A stretch of DNA of 64,000 bases from Naegleria gruberi (lineage: Eukaryota), in assembly GCA_000004985.1 (NCBI GenBank), contig GG738916.1. The stretch is one strand, 5' to 3'. A program made the position numbers and the translations under genes. Numbering within the stretch: the first letter of the stretch is position 1; each line of letters begins with the position of its first letter. The notes beneath the pieces were generated by a model. That model ran no database searches, was not told the DNA's origin, and was given only the letters and a program-made list of their open reading frames with translations. Positions 27,882-53,164 of the stretch are shown piece after piece.

Positions 27882-27954
27882 TCCCCCTTAGCTCAGTCGG
27901 TAGAGCGTCAGACTGTTAATCTGCAGGTCGGTGGTTCGAGCCCACCAGGGGGAG
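27882..27954 (+). tRNA. tRNA-Asn (GTT)
   Basis: 73-nt cloverleaf: acceptor TCCCCCT/AGGGGGA, D-arm AGCTCAGTCGGTAGAGC, anticodon stem CAGAC/GTCTG?-like with loop CTGTTAA (anticodon GTT), T-arm GGTGGTTCGAGCCCACC. No encoded CCA. Confidence 0.9.
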
Positions 27955-36512: not shown

Positions 36513-36773
36513 AATTAAGAAAAAGCTCTGAAAACTGTTACCAACTATTTTCTCAAACTCGCATTAAAAAGATTCAATTTACAAAAAGAAAACAATTATT
36601 GGTAAATCCGAGAATTGTAACCCAAGCTTATTTTGTTCTATTAATACATTCATCTTTGGATTTGAAAGTCTTGGCAGCAAACTTTTAATTCAAATTCGAA
36701 AATGTTCATCAAATTTAAAAATTAAATTATTGAAAAAAATCACAACAACAAATCACTTCTTGTAGGAATCACC

Positions 36774-39700: not shown

Positions 39701-42700
39701 GAGAAATTTACCAATCGAATCACAAATGACACAAGATTTGGCTAACCACTTGTGTGCTGAAATTGTTTTGGGTACAGTGTCCAATGTCAGAGAAGGTTGT
39801 TTATGGTTGAATTATACTTACCTCTTCTTGAGAATGAGACAAAACCCAATGAATTATGGTATTTTACCTGAGGAAGTCAAGCTCGATCCTTCATTGATTG
39901 GTATGAGAAAGAGTCTTATTGAAAAGGCCTGTAAGATGTTACAAGAAAGCAAGATGATTATCTACGACGAAAGAACTGGTGTTGTTTCTGCAACTGATTT
40001 GGGTCGTATCGCCTCTCACTTCTATATTCACTACGAAACAATTCAATTGTACAATGAAAAGCTCCATCCAAAGATGTCCGAATCTGATGTTCTCCACATA
40101 GTTGCTAGTGCCAGAGAGTTCAAGAATATCAAGGTTAGAGAAGATGAATCTGAAGAACTTGCTGAATTATCAGCCAATGCACCAGTTAAAGTTACAAAGG
40201 GACAAGATGAATTCACTGGAAAGGTAAATTTGTTGATTCAAAGTTACATTTCCCATGTTAAGATTAAGAATTCATCTCTCATTTCCGATTGTGCCTTTAT
40301 TATTCAGAGTGTTGGTAGAATTATTAGAGCAATCTTTGAAATTGCTATCAAGGAACGTTGGTCATCTTTAGTTGACAAACTTTTAACCTTGACAAAATGT
40401 ATGGAAAGAAGACAATGGGTATTTGAACATCCACTCAGACAAATGTCAAAGATTCCAACCTTTGCCTTGCAAAAACTTGAAAACAAGAATTTGACCCTCT
40501 CCAAATTAGTTGAATATGAAGAATCCGAGTTGGATCAAGTATTGAATGTTAGAGGAATGGGTAGAATTATTATGGAACATATTGATAGATTCCCTCACTT
40601 GGATTTGGAAGCTAACGTTCAACCAATTACAAGAAATGTTCTTCGTTTCCAAGTTAAAATCAGACCAAACTTTACTTGGGACAAGAAATTGCACGGAGAA
40701 ACAGAGCCTTGGTGGATTTGGGTTGAAGATGAAAACTCTGAATTCATCTATCACTCTGAGTACTTCTTGTTAAAGCATGATGAATATGAAAAGATGATGA
40801 AAGAATCAAGAGATGACGAAGAAGGACCATGCTATTCTCTCAACTTTGTTGTTCCTTTCAGAGAAGATCCAAGACCTCTCTATTTTATTATTAGAGCAGT
40901 TTCTGACAAGTGGATTAGTGCAGAAGCACAAATTACCGTCAATATTAAGGATATTATTTTACCAGAAGGTTTTGCTCCAAGCACTCCAATTCTCCCATTG
41001 GATCCTCTTCCAATCACCTGCTTGAACAATCCTGAATATGAAAAGTTATATGCTGATAAGGGTATCAAATATTTCAACCCTGTACAAACACAAATTTTCC
41101 ACATGACATACCATACTGATGAAAATATTCTTATTGGTGCACCAACAGGTTCTGGTAAGACACTTGCTGCTGAATTGTGTATCTTTAGATTGTTCAATAC
41201 TAAACCAAATCAAAAGGTTATTTATATTGCTCCTCTTAAGGCCCTTGTTAGAGAAAGACTTGTTGAATGGGAAAAGAAGTTTGTTCAAAAGTTAGGCAAG
41301 AAAATGGTCGAATTAACTGGTGATTTCACTCCTGATGTTAAATTATTGAAGGAAGCTGATATTGTTATTACAACTCCTGAAAAGTGGGACGGTATTTCTC
41401 GTAACTGGCAAAATCGTTCCTATGTCAGAGATGTTGGTTTGATTGTCATGGACGAAATTCACTTGCTTGGCAGTGGAAGAGGTGCTATTTTAGAAGTCAT
41501 TACATCTCGTATGAGATATATTTCTTGGAACACTCAAACTCACATTCGTTTGATGGGTCTCAGTACGAACATGGCTAATGCTACTGACTTGGCCGATTGG
41601 TTGGGTGTTGGACAAAGAGGTTTGTTCAACTTTAAGAGTTCTGTAAGACCTGTTCCTTTACAAATTAGTATTTCTGGATTCAGTGGTAAGAACTATTGTC
41701 CAAGAATGAATTCTATGAATAAGCCAGCTTATCAAGCAATTTTGAGACACTCCAACAACAAACCTTGTTTGATTTTCGTTTCTTCCAGAAGACAAACCAG
41801 ATTGACAGCAATGGATTTGATTGGTTATTGTTCTGCTGATGAAAATCCTCACAGATTCTTGAGAATGGACCAAAATGAAGTTATTAGTGCTTTGGAACTT
41901 GCTCGTGACACTCACCTCAAACAATTCTTACAATATGGTATTGGTATTCACCATGCTGGTCTTACTCCATCAGACAAAAAACTCGTTGAAGAACTTTTCC
42001 ACTCTGGTAAGATTCAAGTCCTTGTTGCTACTAGTACTTTGGCTTGGGGTGTCAACTTGCCAGCATACTTTGTCATTATCAAAGGTACTGAATTTTTTGA
42101 ACCATCCACAAAGAGATATGAAGATTATCCACTTGTTGATGTATTACAGATGGCTGGTCGTTCTGGTCGTCCAGGTTTCGATACTGAAGGTAGAGTTTTC
42201 ATCATGGTTCACGATATTAAGAAGAATTTCTACAAGAGATTCCTCTATGAACCATTCCCAATTGAATCAAGTTTGCATACTCAATTGCATGACCACATCA
42301 ATGCGGAAATTGTTTCAGGAACTATCAAGACCAAACAAGATTGTTTGGACTATTTAACTTGGACTTTCATGTTCCGTCGTCTTGTCCAAAATCCATGCTA
42401 TTATGGTATTGAAGATTTGTCCTATGAAGGATTGAACAAGTGGTTATCTACTAAGATTACCAGTATTATTGATGACTTGGAATATGCTGGACTTGTTAAA
42501 GCTATTGATTTGAATCTTGATAAGAAGAAACGTTGGGAAGTTATGGCTTCTCAAACACAATCATCAACCTTTGGTACTATGACAGCTGAGAAGGAAAAGG
42601 CTGAAAAGGAAATCCAAAAGGCCAAGGGAATTTATTTGGAACCAACAGCAACTGGTATTATTGCCAGTTTCTATTATTTGTCATATAGAACTGCTTCTCA

Positions 42701-43661
42701 TTTCAACAGACTCATCAAGGCTGATTCTAACGTTAACTACTTGTTAGAACTTCTCTGTGAAGCTAAGGAATTTGCTGAAATCCCTGTCAGACATAATGAA
42801 GACAAGTTGAATAAGGAATTGAGTGAAGTTGTTCCTCTTGGAGTTTACATGCACGACTATGAATCTCCACACATTAAGTGTTATTTACTTTTACAAGCTC
42901 ACTTTGAAAGAGTCAAGCTTCCAATTGTCGACTACATTACTGATACTAGAACAATTTTAGATTCTACCATCCGTATTTCTCAATCCTATATTGATATCTG
43001 TGCCGAAAAGGGATACTTGCAACCAACAATTAACATGATGCACATTTTGCAAATGATCATGCAAGCCAGATGGGCAACAGATTCAACCCTCTATCAATTG
43101 TTCAGTAATTTGCAATGTCCACGTGAAAATACTGAAAGTTCTTCAGAAGATATTCACAACTTTATTCAAAACTTAGCTCAAAAGGAAAATGTCACTGGTC
43201 TCAAGCAATTGTTGGATGTTAAATATCAACAAGGCGAGTCTGCTTTGCAAAAATTGATTTCCAAATATTTGAGAAAGAACAACTTAGTATCCAATCTCAT
43301 GAAGATTGTTGAAGAATTCCCATATTTAACTGTAAAGATTGACAAGGTTACTCACGATGAAGAAGATCACCAACTTGAAGTTTCTGTCAACATTGAAAGA
43401 TTAAGCAAACCAAAAGAACAAGCTTACACACCAATGTATACCAAACAAAAGGATGAAGGATTCTGGTTGATTGTTTCTAACCCTCAAAACAATGAATTAT
43501 TAGCTCTCAAGAGAGTAAGAGCAAACAGAAAATTCAATCGTACTGAAGTTTATCTTCCAGTCTCTGAAAATGATAAGGAATTGGAAGCTATTGTTGTTCC
43601 TGATTGCTATCTTGGTTTAGATGTTTCTTCTAAATTCTTGTGTAAGATTCAAACTAAATAA
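36774..43661 (+). CDS. ASCC3: ASCC3/Slh1-type tandem Ski2-like RNA/DNA helicase (two DExH helicase-Sec63 cassettes)
   Basis: 2295-aa single ORF. Cassette 1 has CAPTGCGKT, DEVHLLNEDRGPVIESIVART, LSATLPNYMDVANFL, VFVHSRKET and HHAGL. Cassette 2 has FNPVQTQIFH..GAPTGSGKT, IAPLKALVRER, TTPEKWDGISRNWQNR, DEIHLLGSGRG, IFVSSRRQTRLTA, ATSTLAWGVNLPA and KRFLYEPFPIESSL. The C-terminal KDEGFWLIVSNPQNNELLALKRV is closer to ASCC3 than to Brr2. Confidence 0.9.
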   Translation: MFSNKDNDPLAVIDRLLPRSSGSRSLSYLNSQEEFNSNFDVLISPPRLSNTIREKTIGSNTLQLFDETTSYYELFPIIENKRKKNTSDDLLKFGITWESFVKPKISFKNANQHNKDFDRRIEEQNGKNLLEKFLTMLQEQLRLDQISSNKYGVASGLSKQQVACLIAKQLYIAKRKFKNTLSVKSVFKDLQNMGIGLSLDPKTQKLEQIVKEVHILKVLEHLEKLMDWIDRYAKPNLAEEEAKRYGKVERLIIGTGESKNTNTYFSTGTEKDNDEYDDEALVIDENIEFGSADDITNADHLHNQFRNISIFSRSQLENVLDQTNLFSFTAPTENVEEEEEEEEESVLSSMYTVDWLEKEARKICKTPGIENIVLDILQKKGQDAVQLQSRLFDALGENAFELMSIIMEHKSEILADLYRMQMADNAVEGINSFSHVKMTTSKFKDAQKKLKKEGRKIGRKNQTKFNLSGGNSENELNELKSLYQTFKKEKDRNVLKAGEGESRVLVLGRDVIPESNNEADKETQERVIRQPTYEEHVFPAPKKREDNTPLVPISIFEDWAQLAFKGYTHLNRVQSDVFYSAYKTSENMLVCAPTGCGKTNIAMMTVLREIGQHFKGGKIRREEFKIIYIAPMKALAAEMVENFSKRLAPLGITVKEMTGDMQLTKREVQQTQMIVTTPEKWDVTTRKASDQALIQLTRLIIIDEVHLLNEDRGPVIESIVARTLRQVETTQSMIRLVGLSATLPNYMDVANFLRVDPHSGLHFFDGSYRPVPLEQSFIGVSIRNPIARNKEYNQIAFNRTLKNLKREKQVMVFVHSRKETSTTAKALIDLAVEENALDMLTAGVKMSEHTRKWVTKSLEKCHNRELKELVPKGLGIHHAGLVRSDRNLVEKLFSEGIIRVLCCTSTLAWGVNLPSYCCIIKGTEVYNAEKSTMTELGMLDIMQIFGRAGRPQFDVEGEGVIITSYEVLPRYLNLLKRNLPIESQMTQDLANHLCAEIVLGTVSNVREGCLWLNYTYLFLRMRQNPMNYGILPEEVKLDPSLIGMRKSLIEKACKMLQESKMIIYDERTGVVSATDLGRIASHFYIHYETIQLYNEKLHPKMSESDVLHIVASAREFKNIKVREDESEELAELSANAPVKVTKGQDEFTGKVNLLIQSYISHVKIKNSSLISDCAFIIQSVGRIIRAIFEIAIKERWSSLVDKLLTLTKCMERRQWVFEHPLRQMSKIPTFALQKLENKNLTLSKLVEYEESELDQVLNVRGMGRIIMEHIDRFPHLDLEANVQPITRNVLRFQVKIRPNFTWDKKLHGETEPWWIWVEDENSEFIYHSEYFLLKHDEYEKMMKESRDDEEGPCYSLNFVVPFREDPRPLYFIIRAVSDKWISAEAQITVNIKDIILPEGFAPSTPILPLDPLPITCLNNPEYEKLYADKGIKYFNPVQTQIFHMTYHTDENILIGAPTGSGKTLAAELCIFRLFNTKPNQKVIYIAPLKALVRERLVEWEKKFVQKLGKKMVELTGDFTPDVKLLKEADIVITTPEKWDGISRNWQNRSYVRDVGLIVMDEIHLLGSGRGAILEVITSRMRYISWNTQTHIRLMGLSTNMANATDLADWLGVGQRGLFNFKSSVRPVPLQISISGFSGKNYCPRMNSMNKPAYQAILRHSNNKPCLIFVSSRRQTRLTAMDLIGYCSADENPHRFLRMDQNEVISALELARDTHLKQFLQYGIGIHHAGLTPSDKKLVEELFHSGKIQVLVATSTLAWGVNLPAYFVIIKGTEFFEPSTKRYEDYPLVDVLQMAGRSGRPGFDTEGRVFIMVHDIKKNFYKRFLYEPFPIESSLHTQLHDHINAEIVSGTIKTKQDCLDYLTWTFMFRRLVQNPCYYGIEDLSYEGLNKWLSTKITSIIDDLEYAGLVKAIDLNLDKKKRWEVMASQTQSSTFGTMTAEKEKAEKEIQKAKGIYLEPTATGIIASFYYLSYRTASHFNRLIKADSNVNYLLELLCEAKEFAEIPVRHNEDKLNKELSEVVPLGVYMHDYESPHIKCYLLLQAHFERVKLPIVDYITDTRTILDSTIRISQSYIDICAEKGYLQPTINMMHILQMIMQARWATDSTLYQLFSNLQCPRENTESSSEDIHNFIQNLAQKENVTGLKQLLDVKYQQGESALQKLISKYLRKNNLVSNLMKIVEEFPYLTVKIDKVTHDEEDHQLEVSVNIERLSKPKEQAYTPMYTKQKDEGFWLIVSNPQNNELLALKRVRANRKFNRTEVYLPVSENDKELEAIVVPDCYLGLDVSSKFLCKIQTK

Positions 43662-43773
43662 ACAAAGTTCCGATTCTTGGCTGCGAATTGAATGTTGTAG
43701 TATTTCATTCCATTTTAACTATAAATCTTTCTCTTCTACTTGCATGCATTGTTTCAGTCACCTCTCTGAAATT

Positions 43774-43971
43774 CCAGAATATTGTGATCTTTCTCGAAAT
43801 ATGTGTTGAATTTGTAATAACATCATTGCTCTATGAGAGGAGCAGTGAAAGTTACAGAGCAGAGATGAGCACCAACTATGATTGAATAATCACGAAGGAA
43901 TGCAAAAAGAGGATGTGTAGAAGTTTTTGATTGAAGGTTTGGTTGTTTATCGATTTCAGACATTTTTTTTG
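43774..43971 (-). pseudogene. Truncated, frame-disrupted duplicate of mitochondrial-carrier exon 1 (inverted copy)
   Basis: The minus strand reads MSEIDKQPNLQSKTSTHPLFAFLRDYSIIVGAHLCSVTFTAPLIEQ*. It is identical to the 50270.. gene start until two 1-bp deletions introduce a stop. Homology ends at the repeat boundary with no downstream exons. Confidence 0.55.
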
Positions 43972-44167
43972 AGTTTTACAAAGTTCACCAAATTTATCTT
44001 TTAATAAAATGAAAGAAAAAATGGGGTAAAAACCGAGGTTTCTTTCTCGATGAATATTGAGTTTAAAGATGTGATTTTTGGAGTAGAGATAGTAATACAT
44101 GTCTAGTTTAAGTGGTATAAAGTTGAAAAAGAGAAAATGAAAGAATGTTGAAATGGAAAATAATTTA

Positions 44168-44238
44168 TGCGTCGACCGGGAATTGAACCCGGGTCACGGC
44201 GATGGCAACGCCGTATTCTACCACTAAACCATCGACGC
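44168..44238 (-). tRNA. tRNA-Gly (GCC), canonical copy
   Basis: Minus strand GCGTCGATGGTTTAGTGGTAGAATACGGCGTTGCCATCGCCGTGACCCGGGTTCAATTCCCGGTCGACGCA. Anticodon loop TTGCCAT. Intact T-stem CCGGG/CCCGG. Confidence 0.9.
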
Positions 44239-44451
44239 TTCTTGATATCTATCATAAAATGTTGTTAATCAATAAGCTAATGGAGGTAGCATATTACTGT
44301 TCCAAGTTTTTTTAATAAATGTCACTTAATCCACAATAAATTGCAATTTTAATTCTATTATTTTCACTTCACATTCAATTAATTCAAGAATTTCAAACTT
44401 AATTTACAAAAAAATGTTTTAAAGTGAAAAAGCAAAACCGAGCACAACATT

Positions 44452-46812
44452 ATGGGAGTAAATACGAAAAGCAATACACTGCTTACACTTGTTTCCAAGT
44501 GGGCAGTCTCCAATTCCATTATTATTCCTACCAACAACAATTCTGCATTGGAAAATCATCACAATGTGCAACAATCAACAAGCCTTTTAGATTTGCTTCC
44601 GATGAGAGTAATTGAAGAATTACTATCCTATCAATCGGCCTCTTCATTGGAACATTACTATTCTCTTTATTCTTCATCAAACTCTTCATCATCAAATGTA
44701 TTGATGAATAATAATTATAATATTAATTTGAATAATAGGAAATTAATGCAAAGGATTGTGGATCAATGTTTTGCAAGATTAATCGGAATTCAATTTGGAG
44801 AACCTCTAATTTACTCTAAATTGCAGACAAAACAAGGACAGTTACTGAAGGAAGGTGAGGAATTGGGATTATCATCACTCGAAGACTTGGATGATGAAGG
44901 TTATCATATAACAAGCTATTTTGAAAGTTATTTGCAAAAGTGTTTGGTGAATGTGTTATCGGAGAGACAAATTATTGAATTTGTCAAGATGAGTGATGAA
45001 GAGAATGAAAAAGTGAATGAAGATTGTGTTGTTTATAAGGAATTTCTCGATTTACCAATTGCAGATTCTGTTCTTAATCTTGCATTTTCGGAATTTGATG
45101 AGAACAATGAAATATTTCACTACTCAAAACGTATTTTCAATACGATTGGACAAGCTGTTTCTAAATTTGCTAAATATTCGAAAAAAATATCAGTTCCAAA
45201 GACTCTCTTGAAATATTTGGATGAAAGTTGTTCGATTGAGGAGTTTTTTAGCAATTTTACTCATGTTCATGAAATATCCTTCAGAGATATGAGAGATTCA
45301 GATGTTCAAAATATTATTCATATTCTCAAGCAGTGTAATAATGTAGAATCACTTTCATTTTATCATACATTTTTCACAGAGTCCAATCTTGCAATGGTTT
45401 TAGATATTTACTCAGACGCCATCTATGTGCCTCCAACAGATTATTCAGTCTATTTTAGTGATGATATCATGGAAAAGAAACCAATAGAACCAGCAAATGC
45501 CATGGTATATGATGAATTTGATTTTTATAGTGACATTCTGTCTCCTTCAGTCCCAATCGAAACAACATTGGAATCCAATAAGAAAAGAGAAAATAATAAC
45601 TTGTTTATAGAAGACGAGCTTGATTCCAAAAAGAGAAAAACAGATCCACCCAAACTCAAGAAACTCTCATTCAGATCGATATCTCTGTATCACTCATCCT
45701 GTAAATCAATTAGAGAAATATTGGAATATAACTCAACAGATATGCATGGAGTGGAGCTGAATTTTTCCTTCAATGAAATGAGTTCAGTAATGGCCAATGA
45801 GATGCTCTCAGGAGAATCCATAAGAAATATAACAAGATTAATACTCACAGAAAACAATGTAGAAAATGACTTTCTCATTCACCTCTCATCTCAAAAAGAC
45901 TTTTTCAAAAGTATCAAACATCTAGATTTGAGTAATAATAACTTTGTTGGAACTATTGGAGTGAATGCATTATTCACAGCATTGAATAACTATTCTTCAG
46001 GTATTTCTTTGGAACATTTGAATATTAGTCACAACAAACTCGGGGGAACAGACCTCCTCAATGACAATTATCGAATTGTACACCAAAATGAATTTAGCAA
46101 ATTGATAGAATACTTGAATGGGCCTAATTGCAACTTGAAAGAACTTTTGATCTCAAATTGTGATTTAACCCAAACAATGGTCGAATCACTCCTACTTGCT
46201 GTGGCCAATAATTCATCCCTAACCACATTGGACATTTCCAATACTCATTCCCTCCGTTTGTGTGGTTCTTCTCTGTCTCTAATGATCACCTCCAACAGCC
46301 CCCTGAAGAAAATGTCCATATCCACATGCTCCCTCAATGAAATTTCAGATTCTCTCTTTAATTCTCTCCTCTCCAATACCTCTCTTAGATATTTAGATTT
46401 GAGTGGAAATCGTTTCAAAGAATATGGTGGGAAGAACATTCTGACCTATCTCAGAACCAAAATTGATCAGCAACTCACAGAAAAACGAAACAAACATCAA
46501 CCATTCCATTTGAATACTCTCGATTTATCCTCCAATACTCTAACAGAACAATTTTGTCTCCAATTGACCCAACTCTTTGCCTCTCACTCCACGGATACAA
46601 CTGAACTATTGGACAAACACTATCTTCAAGCTAATGGATTACCTCTCATTGACATTCTCCAATTGGAAAACAACTTTTTCTCTCCTCATCTCACTCTGAG
46701 ATTAAAACAAGCAGCTCTCGACAGTTTCATTGTGAATCGAATTGTTCTCACCAATGAAGATGGATCCTCTGAGGTATTTTCTAATGTTTGTGATGGAACC
46801 ACTCTCACTTGA
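44452..46812 (+). CDS. Leucine-rich-repeat (RNI-like) protein with N-terminal F-box-like segment
   Basis: 786-aa ORF. LLDLLPMRVIEELLSYQSASSL is near the N-terminus. RNI-type LRRs are present (LKHLDLSNNNF, LEHLNISHNKLG, LKELLISNCDL, LTTLDISNT, LRYLDLSGNRF, LNTLDLSSNTL). Confidence 0.55.
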   Translation: MGVNTKSNTLLTLVSKWAVSNSIIIPTNNNSALENHHNVQQSTSLLDLLPMRVIEELLSYQSASSLEHYYSLYSSSNSSSSNVLMNNNYNINLNNRKLMQRIVDQCFARLIGIQFGEPLIYSKLQTKQGQLLKEGEELGLSSLEDLDDEGYHITSYFESYLQKCLVNVLSERQIIEFVKMSDEENEKVNEDCVVYKEFLDLPIADSVLNLAFSEFDENNEIFHYSKRIFNTIGQAVSKFAKYSKKISVPKTLLKYLDESCSIEEFFSNFTHVHEISFRDMRDSDVQNIIHILKQCNNVESLSFYHTFFTESNLAMVLDIYSDAIYVPPTDYSVYFSDDIMEKKPIEPANAMVYDEFDFYSDILSPSVPIETTLESNKKRENNNLFIEDELDSKKRKTDPPKLKKLSFRSISLYHSSCKSIREILEYNSTDMHGVELNFSFNEMSSVMANEMLSGESIRNITRLILTENNVENDFLIHLSSQKDFFKSIKHLDLSNNNFVGTIGVNALFTALNNYSSGISLEHLNISHNKLGGTDLLNDNYRIVHQNEFSKLIEYLNGPNCNLKELLISNCDLTQTMVESLLLAVANNSSLTTLDISNTHSLRLCGSSLSLMITSNSPLKKMSISTCSLNEISDSLFNSLLSNTSLRYLDLSGNRFKEYGGKNILTYLRTKIDQQLTEKRNKHQPFHLNTLDLSSNTLTEQFCLQLTQLFASHSTDTTELLDKHYLQANGLPLIDILQLENNFFSPHLTLRLKQAALDSFIVNRIVLTNEDGSSEVFSNVCDGTTLT

Positions 46813-46996
46813 TTGCTGAAAGGGTTGTTGTTTCATTTAAAAAATTCGTTCCTTATTCTTCGGATCGGAATATTGTTTTTGATAACTAGAGAAAACAATC
46901 TGTAGTTTGCTGTAACGGTTTGGTTTGGTTTGGCGCCAAAAACAACTGTAAGAAAATTCCCTCCAAATTGCAACAGAAATCAAAAAAAAAGAAAAT

Positions 46997-48499
46997 ATGA
47001 GTACAATCAGCAAGGGCTCAAAGGCCTCAACAACATCACAAAAGAAGGACAAACTGAAGGCTCTTCTCTGTGATAAAGTAATTGAATTGGTTAAAAAAGG
47101 AGGCAGTGCTCAAATACCTGCCGAAGCATTGAGTTTGATCAGTAGGGATGTAGATGGTCTTATGAAGGAAGGAAAAGGTAGCGAAGCTGACTTGAAGGTT
47201 ATTGCCAACAAGGTAAAAGGAATGCTATCAAAAGCATCTTCAACAGCATCCTCTAGACATTCTATTCCTCCTCTCGATACACACAGTGTAGCTTCTAAAA
47301 AGAGTTCAAGCTCTCACCAAAGCGAAAGATCCGAAATTGCAAGAAGTACCACTTCTAACCAACAACAAGAAACAGAAGAAGAACCTGCTTATGCTATTGG
47401 AACTTTGGGTGGATTATTCGGAGGTGGTATCAAAAAGACTGCCAAACCAAACAAGCCACCAAGTGGTGATGACATTTGGGCTGCCATTGCAGTTAAGGAC
47501 ACTGAGGAATATCACAATGAACAACATCAAGAGTACGTACGTCAAAAACAAAAGCAAGCAGAGTTGAGAGAAACATTGCAAAAGCAAAAGGAAGAAAACC
47601 ACCGTCAAGAAGAAATCAAGATTAAGAAGGAACAAAAATACATTGAAGAGCAAAAAGCAAGAGCTCAACGAGAAGCAGAAGAAGAAAAGAAGAGAGAAGA
47701 GGAGAGAAGATTGAGAATATTGGAAGAAAAGAGAGTAAGAGATCAACAATTAGAGCAATCCAAGATTAGAAAACAAATGATCGATCAAAAGAAGAAGGAA
47801 GAAGAAGAAGAACTTGTCAACAAACTTAAGAAACAAATCAATAAGGAAAAGGAGAAGGAAGTCCAAACTAGGGAAAGCAACAAGAAGGAACTTTCTTCAT
47901 TTTTGGCTTACAACGAAACCATTAAACAAAGAAAAGAAGAAGAAGCTAAGAAGGAAATTGAAGAAGACTTGAAATCGTTCAAGCTCTTTGAAGAAAAGCA
48001 ACGTCAACAAGAATTAAGAAGAGAGATGGAAATGAAGAAAATGTACGAAAGACAAAGTTTATCAATTGCTCTCTCTAACAAGTTAGAAGCCAATTTGGAT
48101 GAAAAAGCTAAGGAAGACGAAATTAAGGCAGATAGAATTCATTCTGAAATGGAAATGAAAAAGGAGAATGAAGACAAGAAGAAGAGGGATCGTTTACAAA
48201 AACAAAAGGAAGAAATGATGGATACATTGGCCAGACAAATTCAAGGCAAGTTTGATAATAGAAAGGAAGTTTTAATGGAAGAACAGAGACGTAAGGAACA
48301 AATTGAAGAAGATTTAAGAAAGGCAGAACAAGAAGAACTGGATAGAAAGAGAAGATTTAAAGAAGGTTTGAAGAATCAACGTGAATCTTTATCTGAACAA
48401 GTTAAAGAAAAGCAACACGTAACCATGAAACAAAGTGGTATGTCAGATATTGAAATGAAGCTCAATGCTGATAGACTGAAAAAGATTAACATGTTGTAA
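46997..48499 (+). CDS. Coiled-coil protein, E/K/R/Q-rich (trichohyalin/plectin-like repeats)
   Basis: 500-aa ORF. About 350 aa of heptad-like charged repeats (EEQKARAQREAEEEKKREEERRLRILEEKR...) follow a Ser-rich N-terminus. Confidence 0.55.
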   Translation: MSTISKGSKASTTSQKKDKLKALLCDKVIELVKKGGSAQIPAEALSLISRDVDGLMKEGKGSEADLKVIANKVKGMLSKASSTASSRHSIPPLDTHSVASKKSSSSHQSERSEIARSTTSNQQQETEEEPAYAIGTLGGLFGGGIKKTAKPNKPPSGDDIWAAIAVKDTEEYHNEQHQEYVRQKQKQAELRETLQKQKEENHRQEEIKIKKEQKYIEEQKARAQREAEEEKKREEERRLRILEEKRVRDQQLEQSKIRKQMIDQKKKEEEEELVNKLKKQINKEKEKEVQTRESNKKELSSFLAYNETIKQRKEEEAKKEIEEDLKSFKLFEEKQRQQELRREMEMKKMYERQSLSIALSNKLEANLDEKAKEDEIKADRIHSEMEMKKENEDKKKRDRLQKQKEEMMDTLARQIQGKFDNRKEVLMEEQRRKEQIEEDLRKAEQEELDRKRRFKEGLKNQRESLSEQVKEKQHVTMKQSGMSDIEMKLNADRLKKINML

Positions 48500-48554
48500 A
48501 TTTCTTGGATATTCGAATAGAATAATCAAACAAATTGTACATAAAACCTAGAGT

Positions 48555-49259
48555 TTAATTTAAACTACCTAAGTAGTCTTCCTTGATGGTACCTACTGCG
48601 AACAATCCTGTTGGTTCGACTTTCATACCCATAATCTTTAATCTTACATCCTTTTCTTCCATGATGGAAACCTGATGATTGAATTGATGAAAATTAAATT
48701 GAATAATTATTCAAAGTTCAAATTGATGATGAAGATTCGTGATGAAAATTTAGGTATTGTTGTTGCATGTTAAAAGATTGAATTGTTGTGAAAATACATA
48801 CTTGAGCTTCTTCCGAAATAAATCTTGGAGGAGTATGATGGCCATCATACTTCATATCATCTGGAACAGCATGACTACTAACAAAAACATTCAATGGACC
48901 TAGATAATCAATGAATTATATGTCACACAACCACTGCAATACTTACCAACACTTGCAAAAAATCCAACTGGTGTTACTTTATATACAACAGCATCACAAA
49001 CTTCTCCTTTGAAAGGCTTGAATACTATAGCTTTATAATTAATAGGGAATGTAGCATATCCTGATGATTCTCCAATTTTACCTTGTCCAATTTTTGTGAT
49101 TTCTGTAACAGAAACAATATATCCATCTCTTCCTGTACATTGTCCTTCAACGTCGTTTTGAAGACGAGCACGAAGTGTACGAGTAAGATCAGGACCAAAG
49201 AATTTAGGATGCAAACGAATATTCTTGTCCAAATCCACCTTTTTTAATAAAATCCGCAT
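48555..49259 (-). CDS. RPB7: DNA-directed RNA polymerase II subunit Rpb7 (3 exons)
   Basis: Exons (minus strand) are 48947..49259, 48802..48899 and 48555..48671. Introns are about 48900..48946 (GTAAGT..TAG) and 48672..48801 (GTATGT..CAG). The product MRILLKKVDLDKNIRLHPKFFGPDL...VEGQCTGRDGYIV...YKAIVFKPFKGEVCDAVV...GPLNVFVSSHAVPDDMKYD...VRLKIMGMKVEPTGLFAVGTIKEDYLGSLN aligns end-to-end with Rpb7. Confidence 0.85.
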
Positions 49260-49617
49260 TGATCATTATATTCATCAACAATAATTATATTGATCACATT
49301 GTCATCATGATGAAAATACACAATAATTGATTTCAATACAAATCGACTCTCCCAACAATACCTACCAAGAAGAACATTTTTTTGTTTGTGTTTTCCGTTA
49401 AAAATAAATTTGCTTGCTTTTTTACTTCACAAATTTCATCCTCTTTGTGTGATGGTAAATGTATGAAGTTGAAAAATTAAAATCTTCATTCTCTGATCAT
49501 GATGATGTGATGATGCGAAGGGTTGATGTATTTTCATCGAACAGCAGGCGGTGATGACCTTATTTTCTATATAGTACTCCAATCAATTTTGAAAATAAAA
49601 ATAATTTTATTTAAAAA

Positions 49618-49794
49618 ATGGCAAAGAAGAAGGCAAAGACTATCCTCATCAAACTCGTTTCCAGTGCTAAAACTGGCTTTTTCTACACTACCAACAAGAA
49701 TACACAAAACATTCAAAGAAAATTGGCTTTCAGGAAATACGACCCAATTGTTGATAGACACGTTTTGTTCACTGAAGCTAAGGTTAAGAAGTAA
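49618..49794 (+). CDS. Mitochondrial ribosomal protein bL33 (58 aa; below ORF-track cutoff)
   Basis: MAKKKAKTILIKLVSSAKTGFFYTTNKNTQNIQRKLAFRKYDPIVDRHVLFTEAKVKK matches bacterial L33 (MAKG.R.KI.LVSSAGTGHFYTT.KNKR....KLELRKFDPVVR.HVIYKEAKIK). AAAAAATG start context. Confidence 0.8.
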   Translation: MAKKKAKTILIKLVSSAKTGFFYTTNKNTQNIQRKLAFRKYDPIVDRHVLFTEAKVKK

Positions 49795-49950
49795 ATTTTT
49801 GGATTCCGCATTATCACCCGATAGTAATATCACTTTCTAGTTCCTTCCGAATAATTATTTAAAATTAACGATAAAAACTCTATAAAAACTCTTTAAAGGA
49901 TATTTAATGTTTCTAATTGAATAGAATCATTTGGAAAATATACAAGAAAA

Positions 49951-50452
49951 TCATTAGTTATTCATTAACAACATTTTATGATAGATATCAAGAAGCGTCG
50001 ATGGTTTAGTGGTAGAATACGGCGTTGCCATCGCCGTGAATAGGGTTCAATTCCCGGTCGACGCATAAATTATTTTCCATTTCAACATTCTTTCATTTTC
50101 TCTTTTTCAACTTTATACCACTAAAACTAGACATTTATTACTATCTCTACTCCAAAAATCACATCTTTAAAATCAATATTCATCGAGAAAGAAACCTCGG
50201 TTTTTACCCCATTTTTTCTTTCATTTTATTAAAAGATAAATTTGGTGAACTTTGTAAAACTCAAAAAAAATGTCTGAAATCGATAAACAACCAAACCTTC
50301 AATCAAAAACTTCTACCCATCCTCTTTTTGCATTCCTTCGTGATTATTCCATCATAGGTGGTGCTCATCTCTGCTCTGTAACTTTCACTGCTCCTCTACA
50401 TAGAGCAATAGATGTTATTACAAATTTCGAGAAAGATCACAATATTCTGGAA
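49951..50452. repeat. Right arm of about 500-bp inverted repeat (carries variant tRNA-Gly and promoter/exon 1 of carrier gene)
   Basis: Reverse complement of 43772..44283. Confidence 0.85.
49995..50065 (+). tRNA. tRNA-Gly (GCC), variant/possibly impaired copy
   Basis: Identical to the 44168..44238 copy except the T-stem 5' strand. ATAGG replaces CCGGG (GTGAATAGGGTTCAATTCCCGG), weakening 2 of 5 T-stem pairs. Confidence 0.75.
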
Positions 50453-51063
50453 TAATCAATTGTATTACTGAGGTTGTAAAGAACGAAGGTATTTCGTTTC
50501 TGTGGAGAGGAAACGTTACATATTGTTTCAGAGAGGTGACAGTTGTTGCCTTAAATTTTTCTTTGCATGAGTCATTTAAGAAAATGCTTCCTCAATATTC
50601 TCCAGTCACTAATCAACTAGAATACTTATCTGGTAGTTTGGCAGGTCTTTCCACATTATCATTCCAATATCCATATGATTACATTTTTACTAAGGAATTT
50701 CATTATTTAAAACCAGGATTCAGAGCTTGTTTTAATGGCCTCTCAGATGTTGCACCCATTTCCATATTATATCGCGGTTTATATTTTGGTCTTTTTGATA
50801 TTTGGAAGGAAATGAGAAGAGACCACTACTCATTAACAAAGAAAGTGGTAGTAGCCCAAGGAGTTTCCATTATTTCTGGAGTTTCTGTTCGTCCTTTTCG
50901 ATTGGCTACAGATCGAGCATTAGGATATGATAGAATTCAAAAGAAATTCTACAAAGGAACTTTTAGAGAATTATGGAAGATTCGAAATGAACAAGGAGTG
51001 AAAGGTTTATTTAAGGGTGTAATGAGTGGATATCACACCTGCCTGTACTTTGATTCTGTTTGA
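50270..51063 (+). pseudogene. Divergent ADP/ATP-carrier-like mitochondrial carrier family gene, frame-disrupted by a 10-bp deletion near 50426 (or assembly error)
   Basis: Frame A 50270..50455 encodes FLRDYSIIGGAHLCSVTFTAPLHRAIDVITNFEKDHNILE*. Frame +2 from about 50437 encodes YSGIINCITEVVKNEGISFLWRGNVTYCFREVTVVALNF...YPYDYIF...GLFKGVMSGYHTCLYFDSV (compare AAC [39 protein letters not shown]). There is no GT..AG intron between the frames. Inserting the 10 nt found in the inverted left copy restores one continuous frame. The PX[DE]XX[KR] signatures are degenerate. Confidence 0.6.
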
Positions 51064-51208
51064 TGAAATACATGGATTACTTTTGGATTAGTTCAATAAA
51101 CTTTTCACAGTGTCATCATCACATCCATGGTCAGATATTTGAATGTCTGAAATATACTGATCAGTTAACAATGTATTAAAACACACGTTTTTAAATGAAC
51201 CAATGAAG

Positions 51209-53164
51209 CTATTTATTAGAATTCAATGAATGGTATTCAACTCTCTTACTAGCGAGAGGTTTATCAGTGCTATCAACATCATCATTTGTGAGAAACACTG
51301 GAACAATCTTGTCCATTAATGTATGTCTTTGAATGGAACAATAGACAGATAAGAGTTTCTCCTTATTCATATATTCAGAAATTGTTTCCACAGGTTCAAC
51401 ATCAGATGAAGTTTGACTATTCCTATAGATGGAGACCAATGTATCACAATACTTTTCAATTCTTTCCTTATCTACAATACAAGATTTGTGTAATAACCAT
51501 GAGCTAGCGCCAAATCTTGCTCCTAACATGTAACCACTAATGGCTGCAACAGTATCTGTATCATAACCATTCGAAATGATTGAATAGAGAAGTAATTCAG
51601 GGAATGGAATATTTGGCAATGCCAATTTCAAATGGTAAGCTTTGGAAGGATGAGCTGCCAAAATAATTCTAGGATTTTCTGGCATTACCGAAGCAACCAA
51701 ACAATGAATACCTCCCAAGAGACAGAATCCTTGATTGACATTTGCTTTCATGGCCTTCTTCTTGACACTCTTTGCTAGTTCAGAAATCTTTTCTCTGCAA
51801 TTCTTGAGCAATAATTCACTTTCTCTATTTTCCTTAATAAATTCAAATACTTGTTCCAAAATATTTGAAACATTGTGAATCGATTGATTCATTGGTTCAT
51901 AAATTTGGAATTGATTCTCAACCCGATCTCCCTTCTTCAATTCAGGGCAATAACTTCTCTGGAGCCACAATTTTTCATGTTTCTGAACAATGAGTGGAAG
52001 ATTATCCAAGATCCAATCAATGGTTTCTTGGCTATTACCATCTTGAATGAATTTGTAAGCAATTACATTGGATGCAAATGTCACTGATGAGCTTTCAATA
52101 GTTGAGTGAGTTGTCAAACATTGCGCATATGAGAAATTTGACAGAATGTCAATATACTTGTCATTAGTAGTAGAAGACTCGATAGAGGCATTCAATTTCT
52201 CCAATAATTCCAATTTTCTCTTTTCCTTTCTTGATAATATTTCTGAACTTTGCTTAACTTCGAATAAATTATTAGATTCCCTTCTTTCAATTCCAAGAAC
52301 TTTTTGTAAAGCAAAACATGTTGGAGCAACACAACATCTCATCATTCCACCAATTCCAGTAGTTTTAGACCCACTTTCATAGCAAGATTTGTTCTGGTTG
52401 ACTATTTTCTTCAATGCCCTCGAAGTATTGGATCCAAATTGTCTGAAAGCTTGAGAATTCTTTGCAACTAATTCGTCACCAAGTTTACAATCACCTTTCG
52501 TAAATCCTTCATAGAGCCATTTTCTCCAATAACTTAGAAATTCGGTAATATTCTCATGATCTTTCGAATATTTTACAAATTCAAGGATGGAATTGATCAG
52601 TGCGAAACCTTGTTGAGTATCGTCTGAGTGAATACCAACTGGACGAATGTGTCTCAGAAATAGCTCAGTACCACTTTCCTTTCTTTTCACACCGACAACC
52701 TTTTTGGCATTTTGCAGATGGGAGAAATCTTTAGAATCCATCAATTCCTTGCTTGGGAATCCTTTCTTTACGATTAGTCCAAAATCGAATAGTAAAAATT
52801 CCTTATCACCATAAAACTTTCGTATTTCACCTGATTTCCATCCTTCAATAGGACACCCAGCTACATCACCATAAACTTGACCCCAAATCGAACCAACCAA
52901 TCGATCAAGAATTTCATCCTTTTCGTCTCCATTCGAATATCTTTCGGAAGATGAATTTCCCTGCGTAGGACCATTCGTTTTCAACACTTGATCAACATAA
53001 TTCTGTATCACATCAGCATTGTAGAGAATTCTATTTTCAAATGATGAACTTTCGTCCTCCTCTTCACATTCTTGATTTTCTTCTAGATTATTTTCTTCTT
53101 GATTTTCCTGATCATCGTTGAATTTAATTTCTTCTCTGTCTTTCAGTTCTTGTTGTGAAATCAT
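51209..53164 (-). CDS. ADP-ribosylglycohydrolase (ARH) family protein with acidic N-terminal extension
   Basis: 651-aa ORF. VGSIWGQVYGDVAGCPIEGW, GIHSDDTQQGFAL and GIGGMMRCCVAPTCFAL correspond to the conserved ARH GDALG/TDDT/GNGAAMR blocks. N-terminal about 45 aa are E/D/N-rich. Confidence 0.6.
   Translation of the reverse strand: MISQQELKDREEIKFNDDQENQEENNLEENQECEEEDESSSFENRILYNADVIQNYVDQVLKTNGPTQGNSSSERYSNGDEKDEILDRLVGSIWGQVYGDVAGCPIEGWKSGEIRKFYGDKEFLLFDFGLIVKKGFPSKELMDSKDFSHLQNAKKVVGVKRKESGTELFLRHIRPVGIHSDDTQQGFALINSILEFVKYSKDHENITEFLSYWRKWLYEGFTKGDCKLGDELVAKNSQAFRQFGSNTSRALKKIVNQNKSCYESGSKTTGIGGMMRCCVAPTCFALQKVLGIERRESNNLFEVKQSSEILSRKEKRKLELLEKLNASIESSTTNDKYIDILSNFSYAQCLTTHSTIESSSVTFASNVIAYKFIQDGNSQETIDWILDNLPLIVQKHEKLWLQRSYCPELKKGDRVENQFQIYEPMNQSIHNVSNILEQVFEFIKENRESELLLKNCREKISELAKSVKKKAMKANVNQGFCLLGGIHCLVASVMPENPRIILAAHPSKAYHLKLALPNIPFPELLLYSIISNGYDTDTVAAISGYMLGARFGASSWLLHKSCIVDKERIEKYCDTLVSIYRNSQTSSDVEPVETISEYMNKEKLLSVYCSIQRHTLMDKIVPVFLTNDDVDSTDKPLASKRVEYHSLNSNK

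What the first reader, a model, noticed from the sequence alone, without database searches (positions are those of the whole stretch)
43772..50452. About 500-bp inverted duplication carrying tRNA-Gly(GCC) and a gene 5' end brackets a 5.7-kb four-gene segment
43772..44283 is the reverse complement of 49951..50452 at roughly 93-95% identity. Each arm carries a tRNA-Gly(GCC) gene and the promoter and first exon of the mitochondrial-carrier gene. Between the arms lie four genes: an F-box-like/LRR gene, a coiled-coil gene, RPB7 on the opposite strand, and bL33. Homology stops abruptly at 43772 and 50452, inside the carrier coding region.

This looks like a footprint of an inverted segmental duplication or inversion breakpoint. 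Such a structure can mediate flip-flop inversion of the enclosed 5.7 kb. No retroelement ORFs or LTRs are associated, so a tRNA-targeted TRE-type insertion is not the explanation.
Basis: seen in the sequence. Interest (0 to 1): 0.65.

Follow-up and report, generated by a model that had tools for sequence, protein, structure and literature searches.

The report
Inverted duplication around four Naegleria genes
A real half-kilobase inverted duplication in the amoeba Naegleria gruberi, carrying a glycine tRNA gene and the start of a decayed carrier gene, brackets a 5.7-kb four-gene block at two points where gene order differs from a sister species. It looks like an ordinary scar of chromosome rearrangement, not a new kind of element.

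Summary
Window 43771-44282 is the reverse complement of 49952-50453 (BLAST 95.3% with gaps). It is the only long repeat in the window, which contains no Ns. A further collinear 15-nt block extends the arms to 43757 and 50540 across a 73-bp deletion in the left arm. Aligned bases are 98% identical.

The window is Naegleria gruberi. The carrier reading frame is broken in both copies. The right, full-length copy has a +1 and a -11 indel. The left fragment has a -1 indel and the 73-bp deletion.

The left tRNA-Gly(GCC) is identical to the orthologues in N. lovaniensis and a metagenomic relative. The right copy has three derived substitutions that damage the T-stem.

Both relatives have a single tRNA-Gly next to bL33-RPB7-coiled-coil, with no carrier, so the duplication is specific to the N. 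gruberi lineage. Both arms sit exactly at the ends of synteny blocks. The enclosed block is inverted relative to the ADP-ribosylglycohydrolase gene compared with N. lovaniensis.

My best reading is a by-product of a small break-and-repair inversion at a tRNA-associated breakpoint, now decaying. Flip-flop through the arms is possible but untested. I found no sign of a mobile element. This is a new member of a known kind, of modest interest.

The parts
36774..43661 (+). Left flank: ASCC3/SLH1-type DEAD-box helicase gene (2295 aa). This is the last gene of the synteny block shared with N. lovaniensis.
   Evidence: ORF. It is 100% identical to N. gruberi P0121 and 81% to N. lovaniensis P0122. Collinearity with L001 ends at the stop codon.
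43757..44282 (-). Left arm of the inverted duplication, the derived and truncated copy. It contains the carrier 5' fragment, the spacer and an intact tRNA-Gly(GCC).
43757..43963 (-). Carrier-like 5' fragment (ATG at 43963-43961). It has a -1 frameshift, lacks 73 bp relative to the right copy, and retains the ancestral 11 bp (43798-43808).
   Evidence: Three-frame translation, alignment, reconstruction checked against Pfam Mito_carr and the paralogue P0002.
44168..44238 (-). tRNA-Gly(GCC), intact. Its sequence is identical to the copies in N. lovaniensis and in metagenomic contig L004.
   Evidence: ARAGORN; Rfam tRNA 66.9 bits; sequences.
44283..49951 (.). Unique 5.67-kb segment S between the arms.
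44452..46812 (+). LRR protein gene (786 aa). No orthologue was found in the two N. lovaniensis loci examined.
   Evidence: Pfam LRR_6/LRR_4/LRR_1. It is not orthologous to the LRR gene of L001.
46997..48499 (+). Coiled-coil, E/K-rich protein gene (500 aa).
   Evidence: ORF, no Pfam hit. An orthologue lies next to RPB7 in N. lovaniensis (L003 11071-12527) and in L004.
48597..49412 (-). RPB7 gene, with introns. The outer limits are approximate.
   Evidence: Pfam SHS2_Rpb7-N and S1; P0126 mapped to the window; tblastx against L003.
49618..49794 (+). Mitochondrial ribosomal protein bL33 gene (58 aa).
   Evidence: Pfam Ribosomal_L33. Orthologues lie next to tRNA-Gly in L003 and L004.
49952..50540 (+). 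Right arm of the inverted duplication. It sits at the ancestral tRNA-Gly position next to bL33 and runs on into the rest of the carrier-like gene.
   Evidence: outgroup loci.
49995..50065 (+). tRNA-Gly(GCC), damaged copy. CCC>AUA at 50040-50042 changes the last variable-loop base and the first two T-stem pairs to U-G and A-G.
   Evidence: ARAGORN; Rfam 54.0 bits with a non-standard pair flagged.
50270..51063 (+). Full-length carrier-like (ADP/ATP-translocase-like) pseudogene. The N-terminal 61 codons are in one frame and the remaining 219 codons in another, because of a +1 insertion (A at 50410) and an 11-bp deletion (at 50426/50427).
   Evidence: (P0001 is a 159-aa model starting at an internal Met). 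The distal ORF is still open (0 of 20000 shuffles).
51209..53164 (-). Right flank: ADP-ribosylglycohydrolase gene, the first gene of the next synteny block.
   Evidence: Pfam ADP_ribosyl_GH. The orthologue at L003 20079+ has the same orientation as in the window, while S is reversed.

Best explanation
This is a real inverted segmental duplication, specific to the N. gruberi lineage, of a [tRNA-Gly(GCC) - spacer - carrier gene 5' part] module. I think it was most likely made as a by-product of a small chromosomal inversion of the four-gene block. The mechanism would be breakage with staggered ends, fill-in and end joining, at a breakpoint associated with the tRNA gene.

Shown:
- The two arms are homologous.
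- Their outer sides coincide with the ends of synteny blocks.
- Relatives have one tRNA-Gly, next to bL33.
- The enclosed block is reversed relative to the right-hand neighbour when compared with N. lovaniensis.
- The two copies have since decayed independently. The carrier frame is broken in both, and the tRNA is intact only in the left arm.

Inferred: the most economical history starts from helicase(+) | carrier(-) tRNA(-) | bL33(-) RPB7(+) coiled-coil(-) LRR(-) | ADPRGH(-). Staggered breaks around carrier+tRNA, plus a break between LRR and ADPRGH, invert the block and leave a copy of carrier+tRNA at each end. The left carrier copy is later shortened by deletion.

The arms have no demonstrated function. 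They remain long and similar enough to let the block flip again by homologous recombination.
For: - The inverted repeat is real and unique in the window.
- The organism is N. gruberi.
- N. lovaniensis is collinear through the chromate transporter and helicase genes and then diverges immediately after the helicase stop codon, 96 bp before the left arm.
- N. lovaniensis L003 and metagenomic contig L004 each carry one tRNA-Gly(GCC) beside bL33-RPB7-coiled-coil, with a cNMP-binding gene beyond it and no carrier. The module was therefore single-copy ancestrally, and the right inner junction (bL33 to tRNA, same strand, as in L004) is ancestral.
- ADPRGH has the same orientation in L003 and the window, but bL33-RPB7-coiled-coil is reversed.
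- Each copy has its own disabling changes. A single in-frame reconstruction is possible only by combining states of both arms. It gives a continuous Mito_carr match (83.3 vs 69.7 bits) and aligns across the frameshifted stretch without gaps to the paralogue P0002.
- No mobile-element ORFs were found.
- The pattern matches the inversion-coupled inverted duplications of non-repetitive sequence described in Drosophila. There they occur at 17 of 29 inversions, with a median of 321 bp and a maximum of about 1.9 kb, and one copy has often degenerated (PMC1885836).
- tRNA genes at yeast rearrangement breakpoints are a further parallel (PMC7990762).
Against: - The simplest one-step version, in which only the present 589 bp was duplicated, predicts that tRNA-LRR is the ancestral junction. 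The outgroups show tRNA-bL33 instead.
- The version that fits needs the left copy to have contained the whole carrier (at least 1.1 kb) and to have lost about 520 bp. The 96 bp between the helicase and the left arm show no residual homology (231 of 500 shuffles reach the observed score).
- N. gruberi and N. lovaniensis differ by several rearrangements here, and the blocks are only 2-4 genes long. The reversed orientation of the block is therefore weak evidence.
- L004 is too short to show the outer neighbours.
- No closer relative and no reads were available.
Confidence: 0.5

Rival explanations
1. The duplication came first and was not coupled to an inversion. In this reading, a double-strand break between the helicase and LRR genes was repaired by copying about 0.6 kb from the tRNA-carrier region 5.7 kb away, in inverted orientation. 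The copying could have been templated insertion, replication template switching or synthesis-dependent repair. The block's orientation difference from N. lovaniensis then comes from a separate event, possibly a later flip through the new arms.
For: - The right arm has both ancestral junctions: bL33-tRNA as in L004, and a carrier that is contiguous across the arm's end. Both left-arm junctions are new, as a plain insertion predicts.
- There is no remnant of the carrier's 3' part to the left of the left arm.
- This model needs no large deletion.
Against: - It does not explain why the copy landed exactly at the other end of a block that is inverted relative to its neighbour in N. lovaniensis, or exactly at a synteny block end.
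- No informative microhomology or target-site duplication is visible at the junctions.
- It still needs an extra inversion to account for the difference from N. lovaniensis.
Confidence: 0.3
2. The segment is actively invertible. The two arms currently recombine, so the 5.7-kb block exists in both orientations within the strain or the population, as flip-flop or inversion heterozygosity. This concerns the present state and is compatible with either origin.
For: The arms are 98% identical over 514 bp, with a 144-bp perfectly identical run. From general knowledge of homologous recombination in eukaryotes, that length is in the range that supports it. N. gruberi is reported to be heterozygous and recombining (PMC9928731).
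Against: - No data show a second orientation.
- The arms are short.
- They have accumulated independent indels and a three-base change without homogenisation, so gene conversion between them is not frequent.
- Because the arms are symmetrical, a flip would not change the immediate neighbourhood of any gene, so there is no obvious selectable switch.
Confidence: 0.15
3. One arm is an assembly artefact, produced by a chimeric or mis-joined read or by confusion between haplotypes.
For: Only one N. gruberi assembly exists (PMC9928731) and the strain is heterozygous, so the structure has not been independently confirmed.
Against: - The window has no Ns.
- Both arms are embedded in unique sequence on both sides.
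- The arms differ by 10 substitutions and 5 indels.
- The left arm keeps ancestral states that the right arm has lost: the 11 bp needed for the reading frame and the conserved tRNA sequence. It therefore cannot be a copy of the right arm's present sequence.
Confidence: 0.04
4. The arms are the ends or relics of a tRNA-targeted mobile element, or of a composite transposon with 0.5-kb terminal inverted repeats.
For: The arms are next to a tRNA gene, and inverted repeats bracket a discrete segment.
Against: - The arm content is a tRNA gene plus a host carrier-like gene 5' end with a paralogue elsewhere in the genome.
- The cargo is housekeeping genes whose order is conserved in relatives that lack arms.
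- There is no reverse transcriptase, integrase or transposase ORF.
- There is no other copy in the 64 kb.
- No target-site duplication is seen.
Confidence: 0.01

Closest known systems
Inversion-coupled inverted duplications from staggered breaks (Ranz et al. 2007, Drosophila melanogaster group; PMC1885836)
   Same: In both cases, ancestrally single-copy, non-repetitive sequence including part of a gene is present in inverted orientation at the two ends of a segment whose orientation differs from a related species. The size is in the reported range (median 321 bp, up to about 1.9 kb). One copy is truncated and the copies carry disabling point and indel mutations.
   Different: Here the segment is only 5.7 kb and the organism is a heterolobosean amoeba. 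The arms are much more similar (98% vs about 88%). The junction pattern fits the model only if the duplicated piece was larger than what survives, or if the block flipped twice. The polarity of the inversion cannot be fixed with the two outgroups available.
Yeast inversions flanked by tRNA genes in opposite orientation, and tRNA genes at synteny breakpoints (Kellis et al. 2003 and Gordon et al. 2009, as summarised in PMC7990762; PMC2675101)
   Same: Two tRNA genes of the same isoacceptor, in opposite orientation, bracket a small block. Both sit at the ends of synteny blocks.
   Different: In yeast the flanking tRNA genes are independent, pre-existing members of a dispersed family. Here the second tRNA is part of a local 0.5-kb duplication that also includes unique spacer and coding sequence, and relatives have only one copy at this locus.
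Inverted-repeat-mediated flip-flop of a unique segment. Examples from my own knowledge, not checked here: the plastid large inverted repeat, and the human Xq28 FLNA-EMD inversion between 11-kb inverted repeats.
   Same: The architecture is the same, with two inverted arms around a unique multi-gene segment. Homologous exchange between the arms would invert the segment without gain or loss of sequence.
   Different: The arms here are 20 to 50 times shorter. No second orientation has been observed, and the arms show independent decay rather than concerted evolution.

Membership tests
Inverted segmental duplication (inverted repeat) around a unique segment | Two arms that are reverse complements, far beyond chance and beyond the tRNA itself | tested here: met
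   804 bits, E = 0, 513 columns. Aligned bases are 98.05% identical, and 455 of the 526 left-arm bases lie outside the tRNA.
Inverted segmental duplication (inverted repeat) around a unique segment | Each arm is embedded in unique sequence with no assembly gap | tested here: met
   No Ns and no other long repeat in the window. The flanks do not align beyond the arms.
Staggered-break inversion footprint (Ranz et al. 2007) | The duplicated sequence is single-copy at the orthologous locus of relatives | tested here: met
   There is one tRNA-Gly(GCC) in the 21 kb of N. lovaniensis L003 and one in L004, and no carrier in either.
Staggered-break inversion footprint (Ranz et al. 2007) | The segment between the copies is inverted relative to its flanks when compared with an outgroup | tested here: inconclusive
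   bL33-RPB7-coiled-coil is reversed relative to ADPRGH between the window and L003. However, other genes intervene in N. lovaniensis, the helicase block is also displaced, and the lineage in which the change occurred cannot be determined.
Staggered-break inversion footprint (Ranz et al. 2007) | The junction pattern is one ancestral and one new junction at each arm | tested here: inconclusive
   With the surviving 589 bp as the duplicated unit, both ancestral junctions (bL33-tRNA, and the carrier contiguous across the arm end) lie on the right arm. That does not fit the model. It fits only if the whole carrier was duplicated and the left copy then lost about 520 bp. No trace of that sequence remains.
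Recombination-driven flip-flop (invertible segment) | Arms are long and similar enough for homologous exchange | tested here: met
   514 bp at 98% identity, with a longest identical run of 144 bp. Whether that is sufficient is judged from general knowledge, not tested in Naegleria.
Recombination-driven flip-flop (invertible segment) | Both orientations are observed in reads, clones or isolates | not testable with these tools
   Exact-protein look-ups for window genes found no other assembly. Only one N. gruberi genome is public.
tRNA-targeted retroelement or transposon | Element-encoded reverse transcriptase, integrase or transposase, LTRs or short TIRs, target-site duplication, multiple copies | tested here: not met
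   There are no such ORFs or domains and no other repeats. The arm content is host tRNA plus a host gene fragment.
Functional mitochondrial carrier (SLC25) gene | An uninterrupted reading frame through the carrier repeats | tested here: not met
   The right copy has its frame broken by +1 and -11 indels. The left copy has a -1 indel, the 73-bp deletion and a truncation. Only a composite reconstruction gives a continuous Mito_carr match. The database model P0001 is a 159-aa remnant starting at an internal Met.
Functional cytoplasmic tRNA-Gly(GCC) gene | Canonical cloverleaf with an intact T-stem and a sequence conserved among relatives | tested here: met
   This holds for the left copy only: 66.9 bits, and identical to the N. 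lovaniensis and L004 copies. The right copy scores 54.0 bits, with an A-G mismatch, a U-G pair in the T-stem and a changed base 48. Expression was not tested.

The most novel reading that the evidence does not exclude
The 5.7-kb block may be a currently flipping (polymorphic or heterozygous) segment in N. gruberi. More generally, local inverted duplication of a tRNA module followed by decay of one copy may be how tRNA genes change strand and seed micro-inversions in Naegleria. The orthologous tRNA-Gly lies on opposite strands in N. lovaniensis and in the metagenomic relative, which could be a resolved end-state of the same process.
Probability: 0.12. Interest if true: 0.5.

Novelty: new member of a known kind. 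Interest (0 to 1): 0.3.

Why it matters
This gives a clean and fairly recent example, outside animals and fungi, of an inverted duplication sitting exactly on synteny breakpoints next to a tRNA gene. It suggests that break-and-repair inversions and tRNA-associated fragility also shape gene order in Heterolobosea, whose N. gruberi synteny has not been analysed.

In practical terms, it corrects the local annotation. The carrier-like gene is a pseudogene in two pieces, the tRNA-Gly at the ancestral position is the damaged copy, and the intact copy is the relocated one. None of this opens a long-standing question.

Tried and rejected
- Exact-protein look-ups for the coiled-coil protein, bL33, P0001 and P0002 found no other contig. 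Neither other N. gruberi isolates nor the paralogue's locus could be examined.
- A metagenome scan with RPB7 returned only distant eukaryotes, at 48% identity or less.
- The LRR and 545-aa genes downstream of the N. lovaniensis helicase are not orthologues of the window's LRR and coiled-coil genes.
- The Willaertia magna helicase locus shares nothing with the window beyond the helicase.
- I searched the 96 bp between the helicase and the left arm for remnants of the carrier's 3' part and found nothing above chance.
- Non-coding homology to N. lovaniensis around the tRNA extends only about 15 bp beyond it, so the flanks cannot be polarised by sequence.
- I considered an intron as the explanation for the frame change in the carrier and rejected it. 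The left copy supplies the missing 11 bp, and the paralogue aligns across that stretch without a gap.
- I also considered and rejected a retroelement or transposon and an assembly artefact.
Full report
**Observation.** The inverted repeat is real. The repeat finder reports arms 43836-44275 / 49958-50397 (440 nt, 98% complementary) and 43771-43804 / 50420-50453. A BLAST of the window against itself gives one alignment, 43771-44282 vs 50453-49952, at 95.3% over 513 columns, 804 bits, E = 0. It is the only long repeat in the 64 kb, and the window has no Ns.

A sensitive comparison of the outer flanks finds one more collinear exact 15-mer, 43757-43771 = 50540-50526 rc. The left arm therefore continues across a 73-bp deletion, and the duplicated unit was at least 589 bp (49952-50540). 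Global alignment of 43757-44282 with 50540-49952 rc gives 514 aligned bases, 10 mismatches (98.05%) and five indels of 73, 11, 1, 1 and 1 bp. The longest identical run is 144 bp. Homology ends at 44282/49952 on the inner side.

**Content of the arms and the enclosed segment.**
- Each arm has a tRNA-Gly(GCC): 44168-44238 on the - strand and 49995-50065 on the + strand.
- Each arm also has about 205 bp of spacer and the 5' end of a carrier-like coding sequence.
- Between the arms lie an LRR protein (no F-box hit), a coiled-coil protein with no Pfam hit, RPB7 on the opposite strand and bL33.
- The flanks are an ASCC3/SLH1-type helicase on the left and an ADP-ribosylglycohydrolase on the right.
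- No ORF in or next to the arms has a mobile-element domain.
- Rfam finds only the two tRNAs in 43000-51500.

**Organism.** The carrier remnant, the helicase and RPB7 are 98-100% identical to Naegleria gruberi proteins on a 245-kb scaffold.

**The two copies are not equivalent, and neither carrier copy is intact.**
- In the right, full-length copy, the first 61 codons (50270-50455) are in one frame and the remaining 219 codons (50404-51063) in another.
- The left fragment has a stop after 46 codons.
- Only one combination of states gives a continuous frame: the right arm's A at 50398, the left arm's lack of the A at 50410, and the left arm's extra 11 bp (43798-43808).
- That reconstruction matches Pfam Mito_carr continuously over positions 13-95 at 83.3 bits, against 69.7 bits for the distal ORF alone.
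- It also aligns with no gap across the stretch where the frameshifts lie (...TAPLHRAMMLLQIQHIFRERSQYSGIIN... vs ...TNPIRGAVFHLGTQDIFSDKPKYTGIIN...) to the only close homologue, an N. gruberi paralogue at 52% identity.
- The right copy therefore carries a +1 and a -11 change. The left copy carries a -1 change, the 73-bp deletion and a G>V change.
- An intron cannot explain the frame change.
- The distal 219-codon frame is still open (0 of 20000 shuffles; P about 4e-8), so the decay is recent.
- The database gene model P0001 is a 159-aa remnant that starts at an internal Met.
- No N. lovaniensis orthologue of this carrier appeared among the hits. The next-best hit is only 32% identical.

**The tRNAs.** The left copy scores 66.9 bits against Rfam tRNA and the right copy 54.0 bits. 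The right copy has CCC>AUA at 50040-50042. This alters the last variable-loop base and turns the first two T-stem pairs into U-G and A-G. The left copy is identical over all 71 nt to the orthologous genes of N. lovaniensis and of a metagenomic relative.

**Comparison with relatives.** The N. lovaniensis helicase (81% identity) lies on contig PYSW02000044.1. That locus (L001) is collinear with the window through the chromate transporter and helicase genes (window 34.7-43.66 kb) and stops matching right after the helicase stop codon. The genes that follow are an aminoacyl-tRNA synthetase, BTB-SPRY, an unrelated LRR gene and OTCase. None has a counterpart in the window.

About 25 kb upstream on the same contig, locus L003 has this order: cNMP-binding(-) | tRNA-Gly(GCC)(+) | bL33(-) | RPB7(+) | coiled-coil(-) | five unrelated genes | ADP-ribosylglycohydrolase(-).

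A 4-kb ENA metagenome contig from a Naegleria-like organism (L004; its RPB7 is 79% identical to N. gruberi and 87% to N. lovaniensis) has cNMP-binding(-) | tRNA-Gly(-) | bL33(-) | RPB7(+) | coiled-coil(-).

Four conclusions follow:
1. The tRNA-Gly beside bL33 is ancestral and single-copy. The arrangement of the right arm (bL33 then tRNA on the same strand) is the one seen in L004.
2. The carrier is not at this locus in either relative, and the second arm is specific to the N. gruberi lineage.
3. Both arms sit exactly at the ends of synteny blocks.
4. ADPRGH has the same orientation in the window and in L003, whereas bL33-RPB7-coiled-coil is reversed.

**Mechanism.** The pattern is inverted copies of ancestrally unique sequence, including part of a gene, at the two ends of a block that is reversed relative to a neighbour, with one copy truncated and both decaying. 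This is the pattern Ranz et al. attribute to inversions made by staggered breaks, fill-in and end joining (17 of 29 Drosophila inversions; median 321 bp, maximum about 1.9 kb; PMC1885836).

Applied here, the one-step version with the surviving 589 bp as the duplicated unit fails. It predicts that tRNA-LRR is the old junction, whereas the outgroups show tRNA-bL33.

A version that fits every observation starts from helicase(+) | carrier(-) tRNA(-) | bL33(-) RPB7(+) coiled-coil(-) LRR(-) | ADPRGH(-). Staggered breaks around the whole carrier+tRNA (at least 1.1 kb), plus a break between LRR and ADPRGH, give exactly the present order. This version keeps the tRNA-bL33 junction and explains the reversed orientation relative to ADPRGH. 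It then requires loss of about 520 bp from the left carrier copy. A 73-bp deletion is already visible there, but I found no remnant of the lost part, so this step is inferred.

The main rival is a templated inverted insertion of about 0.6 kb at a break between the helicase and LRR. It fits the junctions directly. It leaves unexplained why the insertion coincides with a synteny block end and with a reversed block. With the two outgroups available I cannot separate the two models. I give the inversion-coupled origin 0.5 and the insertion 0.3.

**Flip-flop.** The arms are in principle adequate substrates for homologous exchange, but nothing shows a second orientation. Their independent indels argue against frequent conversion. 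Because the arms are symmetrical, a flip would not change the immediate context of any gene. No reads or other N. gruberi assemblies are reachable, and only strain NEG-M is public (PMC9928731).

**Artefact.** This is unlikely. The window has no gaps and both arms have unique flanks on both sides. The left arm retains ancestral states that the right arm has lost, so it is not a copy of the right arm's present sequence.

**Comparison with known cases and verdict.**
- The closest parallels are the Drosophila inversion-coupled duplications (PMC1885836).
- A second parallel is the yeast observation that inversions are flanked by tRNA genes in opposite orientation and that tRNA genes mark breakpoints (Kellis 2003 and Gordon 2009 via PMC7990762).
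- It differs from the yeast case because the second tRNA is part of a local duplication, not an independent family member.
- It differs from classic flip-flop systems in its arm length and in the lack of evidence for two states.
- Synteny of N. gruberi with other Naegleria has not been analysed in the pangenome study (PMC9928731), so the locus itself appears undescribed.
- Overall it is a new member of a known kind, of modest interest (0.3).

Noticed in passing
L003 9248-9318 (+) vs L004 2065-2135 (-) vs window 49995-50065: The orthologous tRNA-Gly(GCC) between the cNMP-binding gene and bL33 lies on opposite strands in N. lovaniensis and in the metagenomic relative. N. gruberi's right arm agrees with the metagenomic relative. 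This is an apparent in-place strand flip of a tRNA gene, with homology limited to about 86 bp.
   Followed up: partly
window 48597-48900 (- strand): The N. gruberi RPB7 model (P0126, 161 aa) ends in 'CIFTTIQSFNMQQQYLNFHHESSSSI', which looks like read-through into an intron. N. lovaniensis continues with '...KTEANGLFAIG...', and the window encodes 'KVEPTGLFA' at 48597-48623. A 3' exon was probably missed.
   Followed up: partly
N. gruberi paralogue P0002 (not in the window): The only close homologue of the carrier-like gene is a second N. gruberi protein (52% identity). It is also annotated as a truncated 164-aa product. Neither protein has an N. lovaniensis orthologue among the hits, so this divergent ADP/ATP-translocase-like pair may be decaying as a family.
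   Followed up: no
window 8374-8679: A coding tandem repeat rich in His and Cys codons, with periods of 36, 75 and 111 bp and 2-4 copies at 66-84% matches.
   Followed up: no
window 34700-43661 vs L001; window 47039-49812 and 51425-51910 vs L003: Microsynteny blocks between N. gruberi and N. lovaniensis in this region are only 2-4 genes long. The three blocks found all lie on one N. lovaniensis contig within about 45 kb, but in a different order and orientation. This suggests frequent local rearrangement.
   Followed up: partly
window 39372-39549 vs 41919-42096: A weak direct repeat (74% identity) lies inside the helicase gene. It reflects the two homologous helicase cassettes of ASCC3/Brr2-type proteins.
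   Followed up: no
window 27882-27954: A tRNA-Asn(GUU) gene is the only other tRNA in the window.
   Followed up: no
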